Source: Chloroflexota bacterium (lineage in GTDB: Bacteria > Chloroflexota > Dehalococcoidia > Bin125). From it: DNA of 64,000 nucleotides. The position numbers and the translations under genes are program-made. The notes below the pieces were generated by a model that worked only from the letters and a program-made list of their open reading frames with translations, did not search any database and was not told the origin of the DNA. Where the stretch lies: NCBI GenBank assembly GCA_028874365.1, contig JAPPJZ010000047.1:4306-68305 (forward strand), given 5' to 3'. Positions 3,619-38,123 of the stretch are shown one piece after another (positions within the stretch are counted from its first letter, which is position 1; the number at the start of each line of letters is the position of its first letter).

Positions 3619-3649
3619 GGTGGACTCGTGGCCCGTTTACAGGACGCGA

Positions 3650-4621
3650 TCAGGCGCAGGCCTCGTCGTCTAGCGACCAGCGGTTGTATTCGGGGTCTGG
3701 CTGATCGGCGAGGGCGGCTCGGGCGTCGAGCCACATTTGCCGCCACCTCGAGGCGTCGTGGAGCACGGCGTCGGGGTCGCGTTGGCTGCGGGCGACGAAG
3801 CCAGGGAAGGCGTCGCGGCCGGTCGGCTGACCGGGCGGGTGATAGCGGAGGTCAAAGCTCCAGCGGATGCGCTCGCTCAGGTTGGGCAGTGCTGCGTGGA
3901 TCGTCTTGCGGTGCAGGAAGAGGCAGCCGCCGGCGGGCAGCGGCACGGCCCGCTCGGTGTTTTCGCCGGGCAGGATCGTGGAGGGGATGTTCAGGCCCTG
4001 CACGCCGCCGCAGTGGGTCAGCACTTCGCCCCGGTGGGAGCCGGGGATGACCCGCAGACAGCCGTTCTCGGCGTCGGTGTCCATCAGCGGGAACCAGACC
4101 GTGAGCATGTCGGTGTCGTCGGCCGAGGCGTTGACCACACCGGAGTCCTGGTGCCAGGGCGTGGCGCCGTAGATCACGTTGCCGTCGGCGTCGCGAGGCG
4201 CGATCGACTCGGGCACCTTGACCCGCACGTGTTGAACCGGATTCGAGTAGATCTCGGGACCGATGAAGCACTCGACCGTGTCGAGCAGGCTGGCGTTGGT
4301 CAGCGCGTCGAAGACGGCGGGGCCGGCCCAGAATGGCGTGTCTGCCTTGATCCCCTTCTGCGGCAGGGAGAAGTCGAAGTACTGGGCGTGAACCTTCTGC
4401 GACTCGACGTAGACCTTTGAGACTCGCTCTCCAAACGGCAAGCCTGAGTACGGGTCGGCGATGATGCCCTGAGCGTGGAGGTCATGGGCGAGCGTGTCGA
4501 GCACCTCGGCGTATTCGTCCATGACCGGATCGATCACTTCCTCGGGATCGAAGACCTCGTCGACGGCGAGGAACCCGAAGGTTTCGAAGTGGTCGAGCTG
4601 TTCGGCGGTCAGGGTCGGCAT
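3650..4621 (-). CDS. Phytanoyl-CoA dioxygenase (PhyH) family Fe(II)/2OG dioxygenase
   Basis: PWHQD, TVWFPL, NGCLRVIPGSH, distal H in IHAALPN, R in RWSFDLRY. Confidence 0.88.
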   Translation of the reverse strand: MPTLTAEQLDHFETFGFLAVDEVFDPEEVIDPVMDEYAEVLDTLAHDLHAQGIIADPYSGLPFGERVSKVYVESQKVHAQYFDFSLPQKGIKADTPFWAGPAVFDALTNASLLDTVECFIGPEIYSNPVQHVRVKVPESIAPRDADGNVIYGATPWHQDSGVVNASADDTDMLTVWFPLMDTDAENGCLRVIPGSHRGEVLTHCGGVQGLNIPSTILPGENTERAVPLPAGGCLFLHRKTIHAALPNLSERIRWSFDLRYHPPGQPTGRDAFPGFVARSQRDPDAVLHDASRWRQMWLDARAALADQPDPEYNRWSLDDEACA

Positions 4622-29023: not shown

Positions 29024-29467
29024 TTAGCCGGTAGGGCGGCTCATCTCGCGACCGCCGCCGCCTCGACGCCGGCGATGCTCCAGGACTCGCAGTCGCTGCA
29101 ACGAGCGGGCCAGCGCCGCCTGGGCGCGAGCGCGGTCGGCATCGGTGGCCTGTTCCAGGCGTTCAAGCGCACGCTGTCGCGCCGCTTCGGCCCGCTCAGC
29201 GTCGATTTCGCCACCGTGTTCGGCCGCATCGGCGAGCACGGTGACCTCGTCCGAGTGCACCTCAAGGAATCCACCGCCGATGTAGAACTCCTCCACGTCG
29301 TTGCCCGTCTTAACCCGAAGCTCGCCGGGGACCAGAGAAGTAATCAGCGGGGCGTGGTGAGGCAGAATGCCGAGTTCGCCGAGCGACCCGGGTGCGATGA
29401 CCTCGTCGACATCCTCCTGCCGCAGGAGTCGGCGTTCGCCGGTGATGATCTCGAGCGTGAGCGGCAT
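29024..29467 (-). CDS. atpC: ATP synthase F1 epsilon subunit
   Basis: GELGILPHHAPLIT, GGFLEV, operon position. Confidence 0.95.
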   Translation of the reverse strand: MPLTLEIITGERRLLRQEDVDEVIAPGSLGELGILPHHAPLITSLVPGELRVKTGNDVEEFYIGGGFLEVHSDEVTVLADAAEHGGEIDAERAEAARQRALERLEQATDADRARAQAALARSLQRLRVLEHRRRRGGGGREMSRPTG

Positions 29468-29499
29468 GGTGGCGTCCCCTCAGACGTCGTCATTCAAAC

Positions 29500-30933
<1,434 letters not shown>

Positions 30934-31611
30934 CTAGACCGCGCCCACCAGATTGGTGGACTGCCCTGACAGCCATGTCAGTTCGAATTGTGTCAGATCG
31001 TCGACCTGCCAGTCGGAGGCCAGGTCGAGGTGTTTGGTCAGTTCGCTGCGGACCAGCACCACCTTCATCCCCGCGGCGCGGGCGGACTCCACGCCTGCGG
31101 GCGCGTCCTCGACGGCGATGCAATCTTCGGGGTCGAATCCCAACTTCTCGGCCGCCCTGAGATAGATCTCCGGCGACGGCTTGCCCATCGCGACTTCATC
31201 GCCGGCGGTGGTCTGCTCGAAGTATTCGGCCAACCCGGCGCCCGACAGCGCGGCGTCCACCCACACTCGGTGCGACGAACTCGCCACGGCGATCGGCACA
31301 CCGGCGTCTTGTAGCTGCGCGGCCAGTTCGCGTGCCCCGCGAATCAGCGGCGCCCCGGCCAGGTACTGGTCGAGCACATCGGAGTTGTAGCGAGCTTCAA
31401 ACTGGTCGAACGGCATCGTAATCGGATAGCGCTCGCACAGGTCGTCCCAGGTGCTCGTCAGGGTCGTACCCAGGTAGCGGAAGTAGTCATCCAGCGGAAA
31501 CTCGACGCCCTGCTCTTCGAGGATCAGTCGCACGGCCTCGTAGTGCAGCGGCTCGGAGTCCAGCAGGACGCCGTCCATGTCGAAAATCACCGCTGTCGAC
31601 TGTTGCGCCAT
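30934..31611 (-). CDS. HAD-superfamily phosphatase (subfamily IA, beta-PGM/CbbY-like) inside the atp operon
   Basis: DMDGVLLDSE, ASSS, KPSPEIY, EDAPAG. Confidence 0.9.
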   Translation of the reverse strand: MAQQSTAVIFDMDGVLLDSEPLHYEAVRLILEEQGVEFPLDDYFRYLGTTLTSTWDDLCERYPITMPFDQFEARYNSDVLDQYLAGAPLIRGARELAAQLQDAGVPIAVASSSHRVWVDAALSGAGLAEYFEQTTAGDEVAMGKPSPEIYLRAAEKLGFDPEDCIAVEDAPAGVESARAAGMKVVLVRSELTKHLDLASDWQVDDLTQFELTWLSGQSTNLVGAV

Positions 31612-31614
31612 GAG

Positions 31615-32493
31615 CTAGCCCTTGAGCGCCTCGACGCCGCCGGTGATGTCCAGCAGCTCGGACGTAATCTGCTCCTGGCGGGCCTTGTTGTAGACGAGCG
31701 TGAGGTCGGCGATCATGTCGTTCGCCGCGTCGGTGGCGTTGCGCATCGCCACCATGCGGGCCGACTGCTCGGATGCGGCCGCCTCAAGCACGGCCTGGTA
31801 GACAAGCAGGTCGACGTAGCGCGGCAGCAGGTCGGCGAGAACCTCCTGCGGTGACGGCTCGAAGATGTACTGCGTCTCGCCCGACGACTCTTCGTCACTG
31901 GGCGGCGGTTCGACCGGCAGGATCGGCACGGTCACCGGAGTCTGCGTGACCGTGTTGACGAACGAGGCGTAGACCAGTAACACCTGGTCGACGTGACCCG
32001 CGGTGTAGTCGTCAATCGCGATGCGCGAGATCGGCTGCGTCTCGGCCAGGCCGGGGTAATCGCCGAGTTCCTGGAAGCTCGCCCGGAAGTTGATCCCGAA
32101 GCGCTGGAAGTAGTCGCCGCCCTTGCGGCCGACCGGAATCATCGAGATATCGCCGGAACCGCCGGCCTCGGGGCCGAGCACGATTTCGCCTGTGTGCCGC
32201 TCAAGGTTGGCGATCAGGCCGCCGCAGAGTCCGCGGTCAGGCGTGATCAGGATGACGGTCGTCTCGTTGATCTCGCGGCGCTCGAGCAGCGGGTGTGCGG
32301 TGTCCGGGTCGCCGGCGACACCGGAGAGGTGTCCAAGCACGGCCTGCATCTTTTCGGCGTAGGGGCGGGCCTGTAGCGCGCGGTCCTGGGCGCGGCGCAT
32401 CTTCGATGCCGCCACCAGCTGGATCGCGTTCGTGATCTTGGCCGTGTTCTCGACCGAGCGGATACGCCGTCGGATTTCGCGGGTGTTGGCCAT
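31615..32493 (-). CDS. atpG: ATP synthase F1 gamma subunit
   Basis: KITNAIQLVAASK, DRGLCGG, SEQSARMVAM, RQEQITSELLDI. Confidence 0.97.
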   Translation of the reverse strand: MANTREIRRRIRSVENTAKITNAIQLVAASKMRRAQDRALQARPYAEKMQAVLGHLSGVAGDPDTAHPLLERREINETTVILITPDRGLCGGLIANLERHTGEIVLGPEAGGSGDISMIPVGRKGGDYFQRFGINFRASFQELGDYPGLAETQPISRIAIDDYTAGHVDQVLLVYASFVNTVTQTPVTVPILPVEPPPSDEESSGETQYIFEPSPQEVLADLLPRYVDLLVYQAVLEAAASEQSARMVAMRNATDAANDMIADLTLVYNKARQEQITSELLDITGGVEALKG

Positions 32494-32549
32494 CGACCCT
32501 TACTACTCTCAGTTGTTCGCTGTTGCGCCCATAGTCCTCGCTGTCGGAC

Positions 32550-34076
<1,527 letters not shown>

Positions 34077-34098
34077 GATGCTGACTCCTTCGGTGTGG

Positions 34099-34638
34099 TT
34101 AACCCTGCGCGAGTGATCGGCGCATGCTGGACAATCGCGTGCGCACGGACCCGTCGATGATGCGGTCGCCAATCTGGACGACGGCGCCGCCAATGATCTG
34201 ACTGTCGACCGTTTCGCTGAGCGACACGGACTCGGCGTCGGTGTAACGCCGCACCGCCGCTTCCACCGCGGCGCGACCGTCGTCGGACAGCGGCACCGCG
34301 GTCGTCACAGTGGCCTCAGCGACGCCGCGGACGCTGTTTAATCGTCCCCGGAATGCGTCGATGATCTGCGGGGCCAGGTTGGCCCGGCGCTTGCGGACGA
34401 GCAGCTTGGCGAAGTTGCGCGCGTTGCTCTGCAAATCGGGCAACGCGTTGTCGAGGACCTGTTCCTTCTCGTCCTGCGAAACGCGGGTCGAGATCAGAAA
34501 GGCGTAGACCGTCGGCTCGCTGAAGAGCTGCGCGATATCACCCAGATCATCCAGCCAACGATCATGCGACGCCGTGTCGTGCGCAATGCCGAAGACGGCG
34601 TCGGCGTATCGTCGCGCGGCGGGATCGCTCTGCGGCAC
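34099..34638 (-). CDS. atpH: ATP synthase delta subunit
   Basis: [22 protein letters not shown]. Confidence 0.93.
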
Positions 34639-34657
34639 GCTGGACTCCTAGTTCTGC

Positions 34658-35158
34658 CTAATTCTGTTGGCCGTTGGACGATTCGGCCAGCACGTCCGCA
34701 ATCAAACGCTGGTGGTCATCGGCGTCGAGCGATTGTTCAATAACCCGCTCGGCCGCCGCAATTGCCATGCCGGCGAACTCGTTGCGCAGCTGCTGAACCG
34801 CCTGATCGCGTTCCTGCTCGATCTCTGAGCGGGCCCGCTCGATCAGTTGTTCAGCCTGGTCGACCGCGTTCTCGCGCGCTTCCGATTCGATCCGCTGCGC
34901 CAGCTCCTGGGCCTGGGCGACGAGGCGTTGCGCCTCCTCGCGGCCCTGCTGGATCTCGGCTCGAGCTTCGGCGCGCGATTCCTCGGCGGCTTCCTGCGCA
35001 CGCTCGGAGGCCGTCAGGCCTTCCTCGATGCGCTTGCGGCGCTCATCGAGCACGCGGCCGAGCGGCTTGTAGAGCAGGATGAACAGCAGCGCAAACAGGA
35101 TGCCGAAACTGACGAAATGCGTAATCAGTCCGGCGAGGTTGAGACCGAGTGCGTCCAT
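34658..35158 (-). CDS. atpF: ATP synthase F0 b subunit
   Basis: N-terminal TM, LYKPLGRVLDERR, coiled coil. Confidence 0.93.
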   Translation of the reverse strand: MDALGLNLAGLITHFVSFGILFALLFILLYKPLGRVLDERRKRIEEGLTASERAQEAAEESRAEARAEIQQGREEAQRLVAQAQELAQRIESEARENAVDQAEQLIERARSEIEQERDQAVQQLRNEFAGMAIAAAERVIEQSLDADDHQRLIADVLAESSNGQQN

Positions 35159-35212
35159 ACCGTCCTGCCAATCAGTCTTTCCGGTCTACCGACCCTGCTG
35201 GTCCTGCCAGCC

Positions 35213-35244
35213 GGCGCCGCGCGCTCAAGAGTGCGTGCGGCGCC
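35213..35244 (-). other. Stem-loop between atpE and atpF
   Basis: GGCGCCGC/GCGGCGCC arms with further inner pairing; possible mRNA-stability element. Confidence 0.4.
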
Positions 35245-35278
35245 GCTCGGATCGGTGTTGCCATCCGGTCGGTCCAAG

Positions 35279-35575
<297 letters not shown>

Positions 35576-35629
35576 TTATTCAGGCGGAAGCCCAACCGGT
35601 CGCCCGGGGTGGGGGTCCGCCGTCGTTCC

Positions 35630-37183
35630 TTAGTGTTCGGCCGCCTCGTCGTGGTGCTCGTCGTGATCGCCGACCGCGGTCGAAGCGAACACGAGCGTCA
35701 ACATGGCAAAGACGAACGCCTGGATGAAGCCGACGAATACTTCGAGACCGAAGAACACCGTCGGCACCACAAAGGCGACCAGGAACATCGAGATAAACAG
35801 CACCACCTCGCCGGCGAAGATGTTGCCAAACAGACGGAAGGTGAACGAGATCACGCGTCCGACCTCGGAGACAATCTCCAGCACTCCGACGAACACCCCC
35901 ATCGGTCCCTTGACGATTGCGTGCGAGCCGACGCCGATGTACTTGCCGAAGTTGGCCCCAACCCCCACCCCGCGCATGCCGAAGTACTGCACCGCGAGGA
36001 ACGACCAGAGCGCGAGCGCCAGCGGCAGGTTCACGTCTGACGCCAGAGCCCGGAAGATGGGGAAGATGTGGCCGACGGTCCCGGTCGTCTCGCCGGTCTC
36101 CTCGTCGACGTAGCCCTTCTCCTCCATCCGCAGGATGAAGCCAAGGTGCGCCGTGTTGACCGTGGTCGGTACGACCGCCGGCTCGAAGTCGCCGATCGCC
36201 GTCTCGCACTCGATCAGGCAGAGCTGCGCCACGCTGCCGTCCGCGGCTGGCTCAATCACGAGCGGTTCGCCAAACGCGTCGTAGGAAAAGTCGCGACTCT
36301 CGGCGAAGAGCGTACGTGGCGGAATGATCTTGAACCCGTCGCCGGAAAGAATCGGTCCCGTCGCTTTGACCAGTTCCGCGTCCCCGGCCACGATCGGCAG
36401 GTTGAAGACCATCGCGTACTCGAGTTCGTGGTGGCCTTCGTCGTGGATACCGGCCGCCTCGAGGCGGGTTTCGATCTCGTGGACCAGGTCCTCGGCCTTC
36501 GTGCCCTGGGGAATCGGGTTCGTCCAGAACTCGCTGCGGACAGCGAACTCGGTGTCGGTCAGGTGATGCTTGCGGATCTTGTGGATGATCTCGTCCGACT
36601 TGTCCTGCTTGTCGACCTTGAACGGAATCGGCTCGAAGAAGGCGTTGCCGAACGCGTCGTTGATCGCGTCGATCTCATGATCCGACAGGCTGCGCTCGCC
36701 GTGCTCAAGATCCTCGACCACCTCCATCACCGAGACTTCCATCTCGTGCAGATAGTGGTAGCGGTAGTTCTCGACCGGGCCGATCACGTTGTTCCAGGGG
36801 AACAGCGCAAACCAGTTGCCGATCAGCAGGAAGATGAAAATCGTGAAGACGAAGGGGAAGAACTTCTTCCCGTTGCGCTCGCCGCCGACCTGCTGGGCGA
36901 TGTTGAGGAAGGCCTCGTAGATCGCCTCGACCAGGTTCTGGAATCCCGACGGTACCAGCGCCTGCTCGACATCCTTGGTCCGCCGCCAGACGACGAACGC
37001 GGCGATCCCCAGCAGCACGATCACGACCCAGGCCGAGAGGATCGTGTTGGTGATCTCGTAGGAGCCGATCGAGACGACGGGCTCAGCGGCCAGAGCGATG
37101 ACCGGCGCGGGAGCGCGGACGACGAAGAAACCAAACACCGCGAACGCGAGCACCGCGAAGATGATCAGGCGTCTTCGGCTCAC
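35630..37183 (-). CDS. atpB: ATP synthase F0 a subunit with a ~235-aa insertion, 517 aa
   Basis: FQNLVE, NWFALFP, RALASDVN, SFTFRLFGNIFAGE, FIQAFVFAML; non-canonical block at about residues 137-370. Confidence 0.92.
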   Translation of the reverse strand: MSRRRLIIFAVLAFAVFGFFVVRAPAPVIALAAEPVVSIGSYEITNTILSAWVVIVLLGIAAFVVWRRTKDVEQALVPSGFQNLVEAIYEAFLNIAQQVGGERNGKKFFPFVFTIFIFLLIGNWFALFPWNNVIGPVENYRYHYLHEMEVSVMEVVEDLEHGERSLSDHEIDAINDAFGNAFFEPIPFKVDKQDKSDEIIHKIRKHHLTDTEFAVRSEFWTNPIPQGTKAEDLVHEIETRLEAAGIHDEGHHELEYAMVFNLPIVAGDAELVKATGPILSGDGFKIIPPRTLFAESRDFSYDAFGEPLVIEPAADGSVAQLCLIECETAIGDFEPAVVPTTVNTAHLGFILRMEEKGYVDEETGETTGTVGHIFPIFRALASDVNLPLALALWSFLAVQYFGMRGVGVGANFGKYIGVGSHAIVKGPMGVFVGVLEIVSEVGRVISFTFRLFGNIFAGEVVLFISMFLVAFVVPTVFFGLEVFVGFIQAFVFAMLTLVFASTAVGDHDEHHDEAAEH

Positions 37184-37467
37184 GCGCGCTCCTCCTCATC
37201 CTGTTCGTCGTCGGCCGGCGCGTCGTCGTTCGGAGGGCGCCGCTCTGCTTGTCGTTGCCGCGCTTGAGCGGCGAATAGGTCTTGCAACATCCGGTATCCG
37301 CCCCAGCCGGCAGTCGCCAGTCCGAGGGCGAGCCCGACGAGCGTGAGCGCGAATCCCGTGCCTAGCTCGTCGTCCAGCAGGACTCCGCCGACAACGCCCA
37401 GCACGATGCACGTGGCCACGTACCAGCCGATGCCCATGAGTTGCATGGCCGGCGGCCACTGTCTCAT
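37180..37467 (-). CDS. AtpZ/AtpI-family small membrane protein
   Basis: Two TM helices, GxxxGxLLD pattern, first gene of the atp operon. Confidence 0.85.
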   Translation of the reverse strand: MRQWPPAMQLMGIGWYVATCIVLGVVGGVLLDDELGTGFALTLVGLALGLATAGWGGYRMLQDLFAAQARQRQAERRPPNDDAPADDEQDEEERA

Positions 37468-37509
37468 GGAGGACTCCCCTGCTGGAGGTAAACCTCCTTG
37501 GCGGAAGCA

Positions 37510-37527
37510 ATGTGAAGGCTATCACAG
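37510..37527. promoter_or_regulatory. Candidate Rex operator upstream of the atp operon
   Basis: ATGTGAA-GGCT-ATCACAG matches TTGTGAA-N4-TTCACAA at 11 of 14 positions, about 40 nt before the first atp ATG. Confidence 0.55.
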
Positions 37528-37601
37528 GCTCCACTTGCGACAAGACACCGCCGCCACCGCCTGAACCGATTCCGAAGCCCGCGGATGTTGTGTAGTGCGG
37601 A

Positions 37602-38123
37602 TTACTCGAAGTCGTCCATGTCGAGCGACTCGATGAAATCGCGGAAGGCTGACATCTTCTCCAGCTCTTCCGGCTTCACCGGCTCCGGCCGGCCCTCCTC
37701 GTCGGTCGAGACCAGCCCTTCGTCGTCGAGCAACACCCCGGCCTGGTCAATCACCTCATCCTCAACAAAGATCGGCGCCTCCGCGCGCACGGCGAGCGCA
37801 ATGGCATCCGACGGACGCGAATCGATCTCCACCTGCTCGTTGTTCACGTCCAGGAACACCCGCGCGTAGTACGTGTCGTTGCGCACCTCGGTTACCACCA
37901 CCCGCGACACGCTCGCCCCGAGCTCCTGCATCACGTTCGTCATCAGATCGTGCGTCATCGGACGCTGCACCGAGACGTTCTGCAGACGAATCGCGATCGC
38001 ATCCGCCTCGGCCGCGCCGATGTAGATCGTCAGGTAGCGGTCGGCGTCCTTCTCCTTGAGCACCACCACACGGTTGTAGTTCATCAGGGAGACGCGAAGC
38101 GCTTCGATCGTGACTTCTTTCAT
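37602..38123 (-). CDS. Bifunctional nuclease (BFN/DUF151) family
   Basis: IYIGAAEADAI, RPMTHDL, IDSRPSDAIALA. Confidence 0.92.
   Translation of the reverse strand: MKEVTIEALRVSLMNYNRVVVLKEKDADRYLTIYIGAAEADAIAIRLQNVSVQRPMTHDLMTNVMQELGASVSRVVVTEVRNDTYYARVFLDVNNEQVEIDSRPSDAIALAVRAEAPIFVEDEVIDQAGVLLDDEGLVSTDEEGRPEPVKPEELEKMSAFRDFIESLDMDDFE

What the first reader, a model, noticed from the sequence alone, without database searches (positions are those of the whole stretch)
36074..36775. ATP synthase subunit a carries a ~235-aa His/acid-rich inserted domain with a CxxxC
Seen: AtpB is 517 aa versus the usual ~250-300. Between NWFALFPWNNVIG and FPIFRALASDVN lies a soluble block with about 13 His, many Asp/Glu and CLIEC; the C-terminus is also DHDEHHDEAAEH. 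The frame is intact and the essential Arg motif (FRLFGN) is present. It lacks intein termini. Inference from E. coli topology: an extracytoplasmic loop near the proton entry half-channel, possibly a proton antenna, metal/redox sensor or oligomerisation domain.
Basis: partly seen in the sequence, partly recalled or inferred. Interest (0 to 1): 0.75.

Follow-up and report, generated by a model that had tools for sequence, protein, structure and literature searches.

The report
Large outer domain in ATP synthase subunit a
The membrane subunit a of this bacterium's ATP synthase carries a real, conserved, folded 238-residue acidic domain on the outside of the cell, next to where protons enter; it occurs only in a group of mostly sponge-associated Dehalococcoidia and resembles no solved structure.

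Summary
atpB (window 35630-37183, minus strand) encodes 517 aa. Residues 136-373 are a soluble insert with 13 His, 48 Asp/Glu and one CLIEC. It is not an artefact: 51 species-representative Dehalococcoidia/Chloroflexota genomes, including complete chromosomes, carry it (50 as one intact ORF), and over 100 protein clusters carry it at full length. dN/dS is 0.05-0.22, like the membrane core. AlphaFold predicts a confident two-lobed fold: six helices, then an alpha/beta lobe. Neither PDB nor viral structure libraries match it, and an exhaustive sequence search finds it only inside AtpB.

It lies in the outward-facing aH3-aH4 linker. This is the site of the published 31-residue "unique insertion" of Chloroflexus aurantiacus subunit a, at the mouth of the proton inlet.

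Strong acidity (net -21 to -39), three His (143, 346, 372) and cysteines in even numbers are conserved. His-richness (3-19) and CxxxC spacing (also Cx7C, or none) are not. The C-terminal His/acid tail also occurs in Chloroflexus and mycobacterial subunits a.

My best guess is a built-in proton-collecting surface (about 0.35). A scaffold, sensor or neutral passenger role remains open. It is a new variant of a known kind.

The parts
35630..37183 (-). atpB, F-type ATP synthase subunit a, 517 aa with a GTG start. It overlaps the stop of the upstream atpI-like gene by 4 nt.
   Evidence: ORF list. PF00119 E 8.5e-41. Best PDB hit is C. aurantiacus subunit a, E 1e-42.
36779..37183 (-). N-terminal membrane part, residues 1-135 (aH1 to aH3), ending in the clade-typical NWF(A/G)LFPWNN
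   Evidence: Aligns to C. aurantiacus a residues 6-136. Hydropathy. Invariant N123, W124, F125, L127, F128, P129, W130, N131 and N132 across the family.
36065..36778 (-). The inserted extracytoplasmic domain, residues 136-373 (238 aa, net charge -31)
   Evidence: dN/dS 0.05-0.22. AF2 pLDDT is 81-95 over most of it, 78 for residues 271-280 and about 55 for 281-300.
36389..36766 (-). Helical lobe, residues 140-265: six predicted helices, 8.7% His, 22% Asp+Glu. It is the more variable lobe and carries the indel hot spots after residues 163, 190 and 246.
   Evidence: AF2 secondary structure with pLDDT 89-95. Composition. Mean pairwise identity 0.53 and indel positions.
36065..36388 (-). Alpha/beta lobe, residues 266-373: strands 273-280, 298-302, 308-312, 318-323 and 368-373, and helix 342-355. 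It contains the most conserved motifs: GPILSGxGFKIIPPR, DFSYD, TVNTAHxG, VGH.
   Evidence: Conservation. dN/dS 0.04-0.11. Shares the G-x-hydrophobic...GG...(I/V)P hairpin with the shorter insert class (hhalign P 1.2e-5).
36206..36220 (-). Cys pair C322/C326 (CLIEC), a probable disulfide
   Evidence: C322 is at least 90% conserved. The partner lies at +4 or +8. Cys counts per insert are always 0, 2 or 4.
36755..36757 (-). H143, a conserved His at the N-terminal stem of the insert, just outside aH3
   Evidence: At least 90% conserved. The shorter-insert class has a His cluster at the aligned position.
36068..36070 (-). H372, a conserved His at the C-terminal stem (VGH|IFPIFR), just before aH4
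   Evidence: At least 90% conserved. It lies in the segment that aligns with C. aurantiacus EEIHDTCAAQGK, which holds the inlet residues His170 and Asp171.
36146..36148 (-). H346 in the near-invariant TVNTAH(L/I)G motif
35669..36064 (-). C-terminal membrane part, residues 374-505 (aH4 to aH6), with R450 (35834-35836), E436, E459 and E481
   Evidence: Aligns to C. aurantiacus a residues 167-310. These residues are invariant in 102 sequences. R450, E459 and E436 correspond by residue counting in that alignment to Ca R249, E258 and E235; the E481/Ca E280 match is presumed.
35633..35668 (-). C-terminal His/acid tail DHDEHHDEAAEH. It is not part of the insert and is also found in other lineages.
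   Evidence: The same kind of tail occurs in C. aurantiacus and mycobacterial chains.
29024..38123 (-). Operon context: BFN-domain gene, atpI-like, atpB, atpE, atpF, atpH, atpA, atpG, HAD hydrolase, atpD, atpC
   Evidence: Pfam. ORFs; the atpC (epsilon) name at 29024-29467 rests on operon position and the ORF listing only, with no family search run on it. The same order occurs in relatives.

Best explanation
Anatomy (confidence about 0.9). Subunit a of this F1Fo ATP synthase has a lineage-specific, independently folded, two-lobed domain of 222-259 residues in the loop that joins helices aH3 and aH4 on the outer face of the membrane. The enzyme is H+-coupled: the c subunit lacks the Na+-binding Gln/Ser/Thr residues (my reading of the sequence). 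The chain leaves the membrane after NWFxLFPWNN and forms a short strand. It then builds an acidic six-helix lobe (variable, His-rich in this species), followed by a more conserved alpha/beta lobe stapled by one disulfide. It re-enters the membrane through VGH-IFPxFR. The catalytic core is unchanged: R450, E436, E459 and E481 are invariant. The domain therefore sits over the mouth of the proton-entry half-channel.

A related class of subunits a (370-417 aa) has a shorter insert of roughly 85-125 residues at the same site. It shares the stem His cluster and one beta-hairpin motif, which suggests stepwise growth with the helical lobe nested into an older alpha/beta insert.

Mechanism (inferred, confidence about 0.35). 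The domain acts as a proton-collecting and proton-retaining surface. It is a dense carboxylate field with a few His, and it raises local proton availability. It hands protons through the conserved stem histidines H143 and H372 into the inlet channel (E459, E481). This would help a single-membrane bacterium in mildly alkaline seawater or sponge tissue to drive ATP synthesis. A practical consequence is that a loop this long probably needs Sec-dependent export during biogenesis.
For: Reality and conservation. 51 species-representative genomes carry the insert, 50 as one intact ORF. More than 100 full-length 90%-identity clusters of 502-544 aa exist. dN/dS is 0.05-0.22 for the insert against 0.03-0.16 for the core. 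GC3 is the same as in the core.

Fold. AF2 with 102 sequences gives pLDDT 89-95 for residues 140-270 and 82-94 for 300-370.

Location. The alignment to C. aurantiacus subunit a breaks exactly at its periplasmic aH3-aH4 linker insertion (PMC12002316). Cys counts are always even, with an extra sub-insert bringing its own Cys pair. There is no hydrophobic segment.

Antenna idea. Net charge is -21 to -39 in every member, although His content and sequence vary. At -13 per 100 residues the insert is more acidic than any of 44 other proteins in the window, whose median is -4.4. H143 and H372 are conserved at the two stems. In the solved Chloroflexus enzyme the inlet channel starts at His170/Asp171 of the equivalent segment. 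Acidic outer-surface segments acting as an 'H+ capacitor' feeding the a-subunit inlet have been proposed for alkaliphilic Bacillaceae (PMC12457358).

Stepwise origin. Alignment. hhalign gives 23 columns, P 1.2e-5, probability 81%. The operon is the same, including the HAD gene.
Against: I could not measure how close the domain or its His and carboxylates come to the channel mouth, or whether C322 and C326 are within disulfide distance. The organism's whole proteome is acidic, so part of the charge is background. His content is not conserved (3-19). Seawater is only mildly alkaline, and most marine single-membrane bacteria manage without such a domain. The helical lobe evolves fastest and has many indels. 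That pattern suits an exposed surface or binding domain as well as a charge cloud. Homology between the short-insert and long-insert classes rests on one 23-column match.
Confidence: 0.4

Rival explanations
1. The domain is a structural or docking ectodomain. It makes protein-protein contacts outside the membrane. Possible partners are the cell envelope or S-layer, a second ATP synthase (oligomerisation), a respiratory complex, or the outer face of the c-ring or b subunits. Its effect would be stabilisation or positioning of Fo rather than proton handling.
For: It is a confidently folded two-lobed domain, not a charge-rich disordered tail. The conserved alpha/beta lobe carries near-invariant surface-type motifs such as TVNTAHxG, DFSYD and IIPPR. 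The helical lobe has lineage-specific loops, indels and nested repeats, as exposed interaction surfaces often do. The precedent of extra lumenal or periplasmic elements shaping ATP synthase assemblies in mitochondria comes from my own knowledge and was not tested here.
Against: No partner gene co-occurs in the conserved neighbourhood; the operon is otherwise standard apart from the HAD gene. No known interaction domain was detected by Pfam, PDB sequence profile or Foldseek. The universally conserved strong negative charge is not explained by docking alone.
Confidence: 0.25
2. The domain is a neutral passenger. It grew by accretion at a permissive surface loop (constructive neutral evolution). 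It is now maintained only because it must fold and must not disturb the channel, and it contributes no function of its own.
For: The same loop holds inserts of about 31 residues (Chloroflexus), about 85-125 residues, 222-259 residues, and up to about 320 residues with a nested EAAAER repeat. This shows the site tolerates almost anything. The helical lobe is relatively relaxed, with dN/dS up to 0.34.
Against: dN/dS of the alpha/beta lobe (0.04-0.11) is as low as that of the proton-translocating core. The domain is retained in all 51 species down to about 35-40% identity, with no secondary loss seen. Exporting about 240 acidic residues for every subunit a is costly.
Confidence: 0.15
3. The domain is a regulatory sensor. 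The Cys pair would act as a redox switch, or the histidines as a metal or pH sensor, gating proton entry according to outside conditions.
For: In this species there are 13 His and a CxxxC. The domain sits at the inlet. Redox control through a disulfide in an inserted segment is known for the chloroplast gamma subunit (cited in PMC12002316).
Against: Cys spacing varies (CxxxC or Cx7C), and the pair is absent in the most divergent members, which keep the domain. His number varies from 3 to 19, with only three conserved positions. In C. aurantiacus, reducing the periplasmic disulfide with DTT did not change activity or integrity. No known metal-binding or sensor domain was detected.
Confidence: 0.1
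4. The insert is an artefact or a mobile element: a misassembly, an intein, an inserted gene fragment, or a split gene.
For: In several relatives the gene is called in two or three pieces. Short-read scaffolds have N-runs inside the insert.
Against: The pieces are explained by scaffold gaps (10 or 100 N) and by indel errors in long-read contigs whose names indicate about 2-9x coverage. The ORF is intact in 50 of 51 species-representative genomes, many of them complete chromosomes. There are no intein termini or Hint domain. Codon composition matches the core, and selection is purifying.
Confidence: 0.01

Closest known systems
Chloroflexus aurantiacus F1Fo subunit a (PDB 9itj and related entries; PMC12002316, 2025), with its 'unique insertion' His142-Thr172 in the aH3-aH4 linker
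   Same: Same phylum and best PDB match (E 1e-42; Foldseek E 1.5e-6). The insertion point is identical, between ...GNWFGL(L/F)P... and ...(L/I)FRAxAxDxN.... The location is periplasmic, at the start of the inlet half-channel. There is a His just before aH4. An N-terminal extra transmembrane helix and a C-terminal HDE-type tail are shared.
   Different: The insert is 238 residues instead of 31. It is predicted as a folded two-lobed domain, whereas the Chloroflexus loop is largely disordered. There is no stem-to-stem disulfide like Cys135-Cys173; the Cys pair here is internal to the alpha/beta lobe. The delta subunit here is full length, not shortened as in Chloroflexus. The two-stalk, two-a-subunit architecture is therefore not implied.
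Intermediate-length subunits a (370-417 aa, e.g. P0139-P0148) from uncultured relatives
   Same: The insertion site is the same. There is a His-rich segment right after aH3 and a shared hairpin motif (hhalign P 1.2e-5). The one contig examined (P0145, L059) has the same operon, including the HAD gene between atpG and atpD.
   Different: The insert is only about 85-125 residues and lacks the six-helix lobe. Its taxonomy was not determined.
Canonical bacterial subunits a (E. coli, Bacillus PS3, mycobacteria, chloroplast)
   Same: PF00119 core, essential Arg, half-channel glutamates and operon position.
   Different: They are 177-312 aa long with a short aH3-aH4 loop and no ectodomain.
Proposed 'H+ capacitor' acidic segments of membrane-bound cytochromes c in obligately alkaliphilic Bacillaceae (PMC12457358), and proton-collecting antennae of other proton-translocating proteins (the latter from my own knowledge)
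   Same: They work alike in concept: an acidic outer-surface protein segment near the a-subunit inlet that concentrates protons in a single-membrane cell.
   Different: There is no sequence or structural relationship. In those cases the segment belongs to another protein and the idea itself is hypothetical. Here the domain is fused into subunit a.

Membership tests
F-type ATP synthase subunit a (Pfam PF00119, ATP-synt_A) | Match to the family profile above the curated cut-off | tested here: met
   140.6 bits against a cut-off of 33.9, in two stretches flanking the insert.
F-type ATP synthase subunit a (Pfam PF00119, ATP-synt_A) | Essential Arg in aH5, and the acidic residues of the inlet and outlet half-channels | tested here: met
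   R450, E436, E459 and E481 are invariant in 102 sequences. R450, E436 and E459 correspond by residue counting to C. aurantiacus R249, E235 and E258, and E481 presumably to E280.
F-type ATP synthase subunit a (Pfam PF00119, ATP-synt_A) | Position in an atp operon next to atpI and atpE | tested here: met
   atpI-like, atpB, atpE, atpF, atpH, atpA, atpG, HAD, atpD, atpC.
Chloroflexus-type aH3-aH4 linker insertion | Insertion at the same position of the aH3-aH4 periplasmic linker | tested here: met
   Query residues 3-138 align to Ca 6-136, and 361-511 to Ca 167-310. The published insertion is His142-Thr172.
Chloroflexus-type aH3-aH4 linker insertion | Short (about 31 aa), largely disordered loop closed by a stem disulfide (Cys135-Cys173) | tested here: not met
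   The insert is 238 aa and confidently folded. There is no Cys at either stem; the only Cys are 322 and 326.
Chloroflexus-type aH3-aH4 linker insertion | His/Asp at the channel mouth just before aH4 | tested here: inconclusive
   H372 is at least 90% conserved and lies in the aligned segment. Residue-level equivalence to His170/Asp171 cannot be fixed without a structure.
Chloroflexus-type two-stalk, two-a-subunit F1Fo | Delta subunit with an N-terminal domain shortened by about 20 residues | tested here: not met
   The window's delta (179 aa) aligns over residues 6-176 to Bacillus PS3 delta 5-176. It aligns to C. aurantiacus delta (157 aa) only over residues 67-176.
Intein | N-terminal Cys/Ser, C-terminal His-Asn followed by Cys/Ser/Thr, and a Hint domain | tested here: not met
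   The insert starts PVEN and ends VGH|IFP. There is no Hint or intein Pfam hit.
CxxC/CxxxC redox or metal-binding motif | Conserved Cys spacing across homologues | tested here: not met
   The spacing is +4 or +8, and the pair is absent in 5 of the 52 aligned sequences.
His-rich metal-binding domain | Conserved His cluster | tested here: not met
   There are 3-19 His per insert. Only H143, H346 and H372 are conserved, and they are far apart in sequence.
Any known structural domain (PDB, BFVD, Pfam) | Significant sequence or fold match of residues 136-373 | tested here: not met
   Pfam found none. The PDB sequence-profile search gave nothing better than E about 0.09 for the insert. Foldseek against PDB returned only subunits a below E 0.5. 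BFVD gave nothing below E 0.1. Caveat: the query was the full-length model, and AlphaFold DB was not available.

The most novel reading that the evidence does not exclude
A previously undescribed protein fold has been fused into the stator of a rotary ATP synthase as a proton-harvesting ectodomain. If so, a group of uncultured sponge-associated Dehalococcoidia solved the problem of feeding protons to Fo, without a periplasm and at alkaline pH, by building the antenna into subunit a itself. The graded series of insert sizes at one loop (31, about 100, about 240 and about 320 residues) would record how it evolved.
Probability: 0.25. Interest if true: 0.8.

Novelty: new variant of a known kind. 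Interest (0 to 1): 0.62.

Why it matters
Subunit a is among the most conserved membrane proteins. Its outer loops are normally a few residues long, and all solved bacterial structures have a bare inlet. A conserved, folded domain of about 240 residues sitting on the proton inlet would be the largest known elaboration of bacterial Fo on the outer side.

That is a long-standing question in alkaliphile and marine bioenergetics. It also extends the 2025 finding that Chloroflexota ATP synthases are architecturally unusual.

There are practical points too. NCBI annotation labels some of these proteins 'hypothetical'. Gene callers split the gene on draft assemblies. The domain is also a sequence marker for a clade of sponge symbionts.

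Tried and rejected
(1) The first word-indexed search with the insert alone returned only 9 fragmentary proteins, which suggested a split or decaying gene. I rejected this. The fragments come from scaffold gaps and from indel errors in low-coverage long-read contigs. A profile search then found more than 100 intact full-length clusters.

(2) The exhaustive HMMER search of 1.84 billion representatives with the insert found no stand-alone or differently embedded homologue. The one non-AtpB hit, P0016, is a low-complexity repeat protein.

(3) The first AF2 model used 19 sequences and was too poor for fold search.

The final model is therefore full length, and Foldseek could not be run on the isolated domain.

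(5) The PDB sequence-profile search and the BFVD search gave nothing.

(6) An internal duplication in the helical lobe (the AF..PIP motif occurs twice) scores only P 0.01, probability 4%. It is not claimed.

(7) The alignment of all 11 insert fragments was too divergent for the genome scan, so I repeated it with 3 sequences.

(8) Rfam found nothing in the window.

(9) Five literature searches found no description of this domain.

(10) I considered Na+ coupling and rejected it from the c-subunit sequence, which lacks the Gln/Ser/Thr of the Na+ site. This is my reading, not a tool result.
Full report
OBSERVATION

The minus-strand ORF 35630-37183 encodes a 517-residue protein. Pfam recognises it as ATP synthase subunit a (PF00119, 140.6 bits) in two stretches separated by a long unmatched block. 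NWFALFPWNNVIG ends at residue 135 and FPIFRALASDVN begins at 374. The block between them is 238 residues (window 36065-36778). It contains 13 His, 48 Asp+Glu, 17 Lys+Arg and two Cys in CLIEC, and it has no hydrophobic segment of transmembrane strength. FRLFGN (R450) and the tail GDHDEHHDEAAEH are present. Solved subunits a are 177-312 residues long.

IS IT REAL?

A first search with the insert returned only nine short proteins that looked like halves of a split or frameshifted gene. I fetched their contigs to find out why.
- The NCBI MAG contig L001 has a 10-N scaffold gap inside the insert.
- Two other short-read scaffolds (L003, L004) have 100-N gaps there.
- The remaining contigs (L002, L005-L007) have names typical of long-read assemblies, most tagged with about 2-9x coverage, and show scattered frame changes.

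A scan of one genome per GTDB species found 51 loci. All are Dehalococcoidia/Chloroflexota MAGs, and many are complete chromosomes. In each the whole query segment, residues 118-389 (the insert plus 18 and 16 flanking membrane residues), is matched in a single frame. In 50 of the 51 the complete gene is one intact ORF of 502-539 residues, and one (L052) has a frameshift.

A profile search then recovered more than 100 full-length 90%-identity clusters of 502-544 residues. NCBI labels them 'F0F1 ATP synthase subunit A' or 'hypothetical protein' of Chloroflexota bacteria. Many bin names point to sponge hosts, such as IRC, RHO, COS, SB0664 and PNGco. Bin125 is from Aplysina aerophoba.

Nei-Gojobori dN/dS between the window and 13 relatives is 0.05-0.22 for the insert and 0.03-0.16 for the membrane core. 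The C-terminal part of the insert (0.04-0.11) is as constrained as the core. The N-terminal part is looser (0.06-0.34). GC3 of the insert (0.85-0.89) equals that of the core. The insert is therefore an old, selected part of the protein. It is not an assembly artefact, a spacer or an intein: there are no intein termini and no Hint domain.

WHERE IT SITS

The best solved relative is subunit a of Chloroflexus aurantiacus (9itj_T, E 1e-42). Window residues 3-138 align to its residues 6-136, and residues 361-511 to its residues 167-310. [quoted passage not shown] That linker is on the periplasmic surface. [quoted passage not shown]

The window's insert is thus a nearly eight-fold larger occupant of the same site, at the mouth of the proton inlet. 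An outside location is independently supported by the cysteines. Across 52 sequences the insert has 0, 2 or 4 Cys, never an odd number. A 20-residue sub-insert found in six species brings its own pair.

The channel residues are intact. R450, E436, E459 and E481 are invariant in 102 sequences. The first three correspond by residue counting in the alignment to Chloroflexus R249, E235 and E258; E481 presumably matches E280.

WHAT IT LOOKS LIKE

With a 102-sequence alignment AlphaFold2 gives a confident fold for the insert, more confident than for the membrane part.
- A short strand at 137-139 leads out of the membrane.
- Six helices follow (140-160, 168-181, 190-204, 210-221, 230-243, 253-261), with pLDDT 89-95.
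- An alpha/beta lobe comes next (strands 273-280, 298-302, 308-312, 318-323; helix 342-355; strand 368-373), with pLDDT 82-94.
- One weak loop lies at 281-297.

Foldseek against the PDB returns only ATP synthase subunits a below E 0.5, the best being Chloroflexus at 1.5e-6. BFVD returns nothing. A sequence profile of the insert finds nothing in the PDB. An exhaustive HMMER search of 1.84 billion representative proteins finds the domain only inside AtpB. Two caveats apply. AlphaFold DB was not available.

WHAT IS AND IS NOT CONSERVED

Invariant or near-invariant positions include H143-Y144-L145, R164, N175, F178, I186, I200, V215-R216, F219, P223, R240-L241, N261, P263, G276, the IIPPR and DFSYD segments, C322, T341-x-N343-T344-A345-H346-x-G348, G357 and V370-G371-H372.

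Net charge is strongly negative in every member (-21 to -39). The His count varies from 3 to 19, almost all of it in the helical lobe (2-16 there, 1-3 in the alpha/beta lobe). The Cys pair is CxxxC in one subclade and Cx7C in another. It is absent in the most divergent group, which nevertheless keeps the domain.

The insert is more acidic (-13 per 100 residues) than any of 44 other proteins encoded in the window. However, the whole proteome is acidic, with a median of -4.4 and a minimum of -11.6.

The C-terminal His/acid tail is also present in Chloroflexus (GHDEEH) and mycobacterial (EEEHH, DHEDH) subunits a. By homology it is cytoplasmic, so it is a separate feature that also occurs outside this clade.

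HOW IT MAY HAVE ARISEN

The profile search also returned subunits a of 370-417 residues. At the same site these carry an insert of about 85-125 residues. It begins with a His-rich helix (for example REHVHHEAEAHPD) and contains a hairpin GW(V/I)M..GG...VP(L/M)F. They lack the six-helix lobe.

Profile-profile comparison of the two insert classes, with the membrane flanks removed, aligns this hairpin with GPILSGDGFKIIPPR of the large insert. The match covers 23 columns, with P 1.2e-5 and probability 81%. One such gene lies in the same operon, including an unusual HAD-hydrolase gene between atpG and atpD.

At the other extreme, variants of 595-601 residues have an extra EAAAER-type repeat nested in the loop after RLEAAG. 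The site therefore shows a graded series of about 31, about 100, about 240 and about 320 residues. This is consistent with stepwise accretion, the helical lobe being nested into an older alpha/beta insert. The evidence is suggestive rather than proven.

MECHANISM

Shown:
- a folded, selected, acidic, extracytoplasmic domain at the inlet of an otherwise canonical subunit a (the H+ coupling is my own reading of the c-subunit sequence, not a tool result);
- conserved His at both stems (H143, H372).

Inferred: the domain acts as a proton-collecting and proton-retaining surface that feeds the inlet. I prefer this reading for four reasons.
- The one global property conserved across 35-100% identity is the dense negative charge.
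- The conserved His sit where the chain enters and leaves the membrane.
- The equivalent Chloroflexus segment supplies the first residues of the inlet path.
- Chloroflexota have a single membrane (my own knowledge), so they cannot rely on a periplasm to hold protons in seawater, which is mildly alkaline.

A conceptually similar 'H+ capacitor' has been proposed for acidic outer segments of cytochromes c in alkaliphilic Bacillaceae (PMC12457358). I put this mechanism at about 0.35.

Rivals:
- a docking or scaffold ectodomain (0.25);
- a neutral passenger at a permissive loop (0.15);
- a redox or metal sensor (0.1), weakened by the variable Cys spacing and His count and by the DTT-insensitivity of the Chloroflexus enzyme;
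- an artefact (about 0.01).

The delta subunit here is full length. It aligns over residues 6-176 to Bacillus PS3 delta, whereas the shortened Chloroflexus delta aligns only from residue 67. The two-stalk, two-a-subunit architecture of Chloroflexus therefore need not apply.

COMPARISON AND NOVELTY

The protein is a member of the subunit a family; all defining features tested were met. It shares the insertion site with the Chloroflexus insertion but fails that insertion's other features: length, disorder, stem disulfide and short delta. It is not an intein, and it is not a conserved CxxxC or His-cluster metal site.

I found no paper describing this domain. I rate it a new variant of a known kind. 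It is a canonical rotary ATP synthase stator subunit carrying a large lineage-restricted ectodomain, with no match in the structure libraries I could search. Interest is 0.62. It is surprising for a protein this conserved, and it makes the proton-antenna question testable. However, the function is unproven and the host organisms are uncultured.

Noticed in passing
window 30934-31611 (-); also L001 14747-15424, L003 7974-8660, L059 10513-11176: A HAD-family hydrolase gene (PF00702/PF13419) sits inside the atp operon between atpG and atpD. It is conserved in relatives with both the long and the shorter subunit-a insert. No reason for a phosphatase-like gene there is apparent.
   Followed up: partly
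window 34099-34638 (-): The delta (OSCP) subunit is full length. It aligns end to end with Bacillus PS3 delta. C. aurantiacus delta aligns only from residue 67. The claim that a shortened delta N-domain is common to Chloroflexi therefore does not extend to this Dehalococcoidia lineage.
   Followed up: partly
L001 9937-9946; L003 3064-3163; L004 3993-4092: Three independent short-read scaffolds break (N-runs) inside the helical lobe of the insert, at residues about 168-256. This is the fastest-evolving, indel-rich part. It may reflect strain-level heterogeneity in sponge metagenomes.
   Followed up: no
P0088, P0089, P0097 (595-601 aa); L024, L027, L029, L030, L032 and L036 around locus position 4130: Further nested additions occur within the insert. 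One is a low-complexity EAAAER-type repeat of about 85 residues after RLEAAG. The other is a 20-residue loop bounded by its own Cys pair after residue 163.
   Followed up: partly
P0011 (535 aa), P0134 (554 aa): Chimeric proteins join SecA-like or other domains to the C-terminal half of this AtpB, on contigs of about 2.6 kb. They are most likely misassemblies.
   Followed up: no
window 37180-37183: The GTG start of atpB overlaps the stop of the atpI-like gene (PF09527) by 4 nt, which suggests translational coupling. GTG is the start codon in most relatives.
   Followed up: no
window 37602-38123 (-): A very acidic bifunctional-nuclease-domain gene (PF02577) lies immediately upstream of atpI. It is syntenic in all relatives examined (L001-L007).
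   Followed up: no
window residues 173-189 and 213-226 of AtpB (about 36506-36667): The motif A(x)F...(N/E)PIP occurs twice in the helical lobe, hinting at an internal duplication. Profile-profile support is weak (P 0.01, probability 4%).
   Followed up: yes
whole window: Nearly all soluble proteins encoded in the window are acidic, with a median net charge of -4.4 per 100 residues. No Rfam family reaches its threshold anywhere in the 64 kb.
   Followed up: partly
L052 (CAXXRD010000001.1) near locus 3647-3750: One species-representative genome has a frameshift near the 5' end of atpB. It is either a sequencing error or a pseudogene and was not resolved.
   Followed up: no
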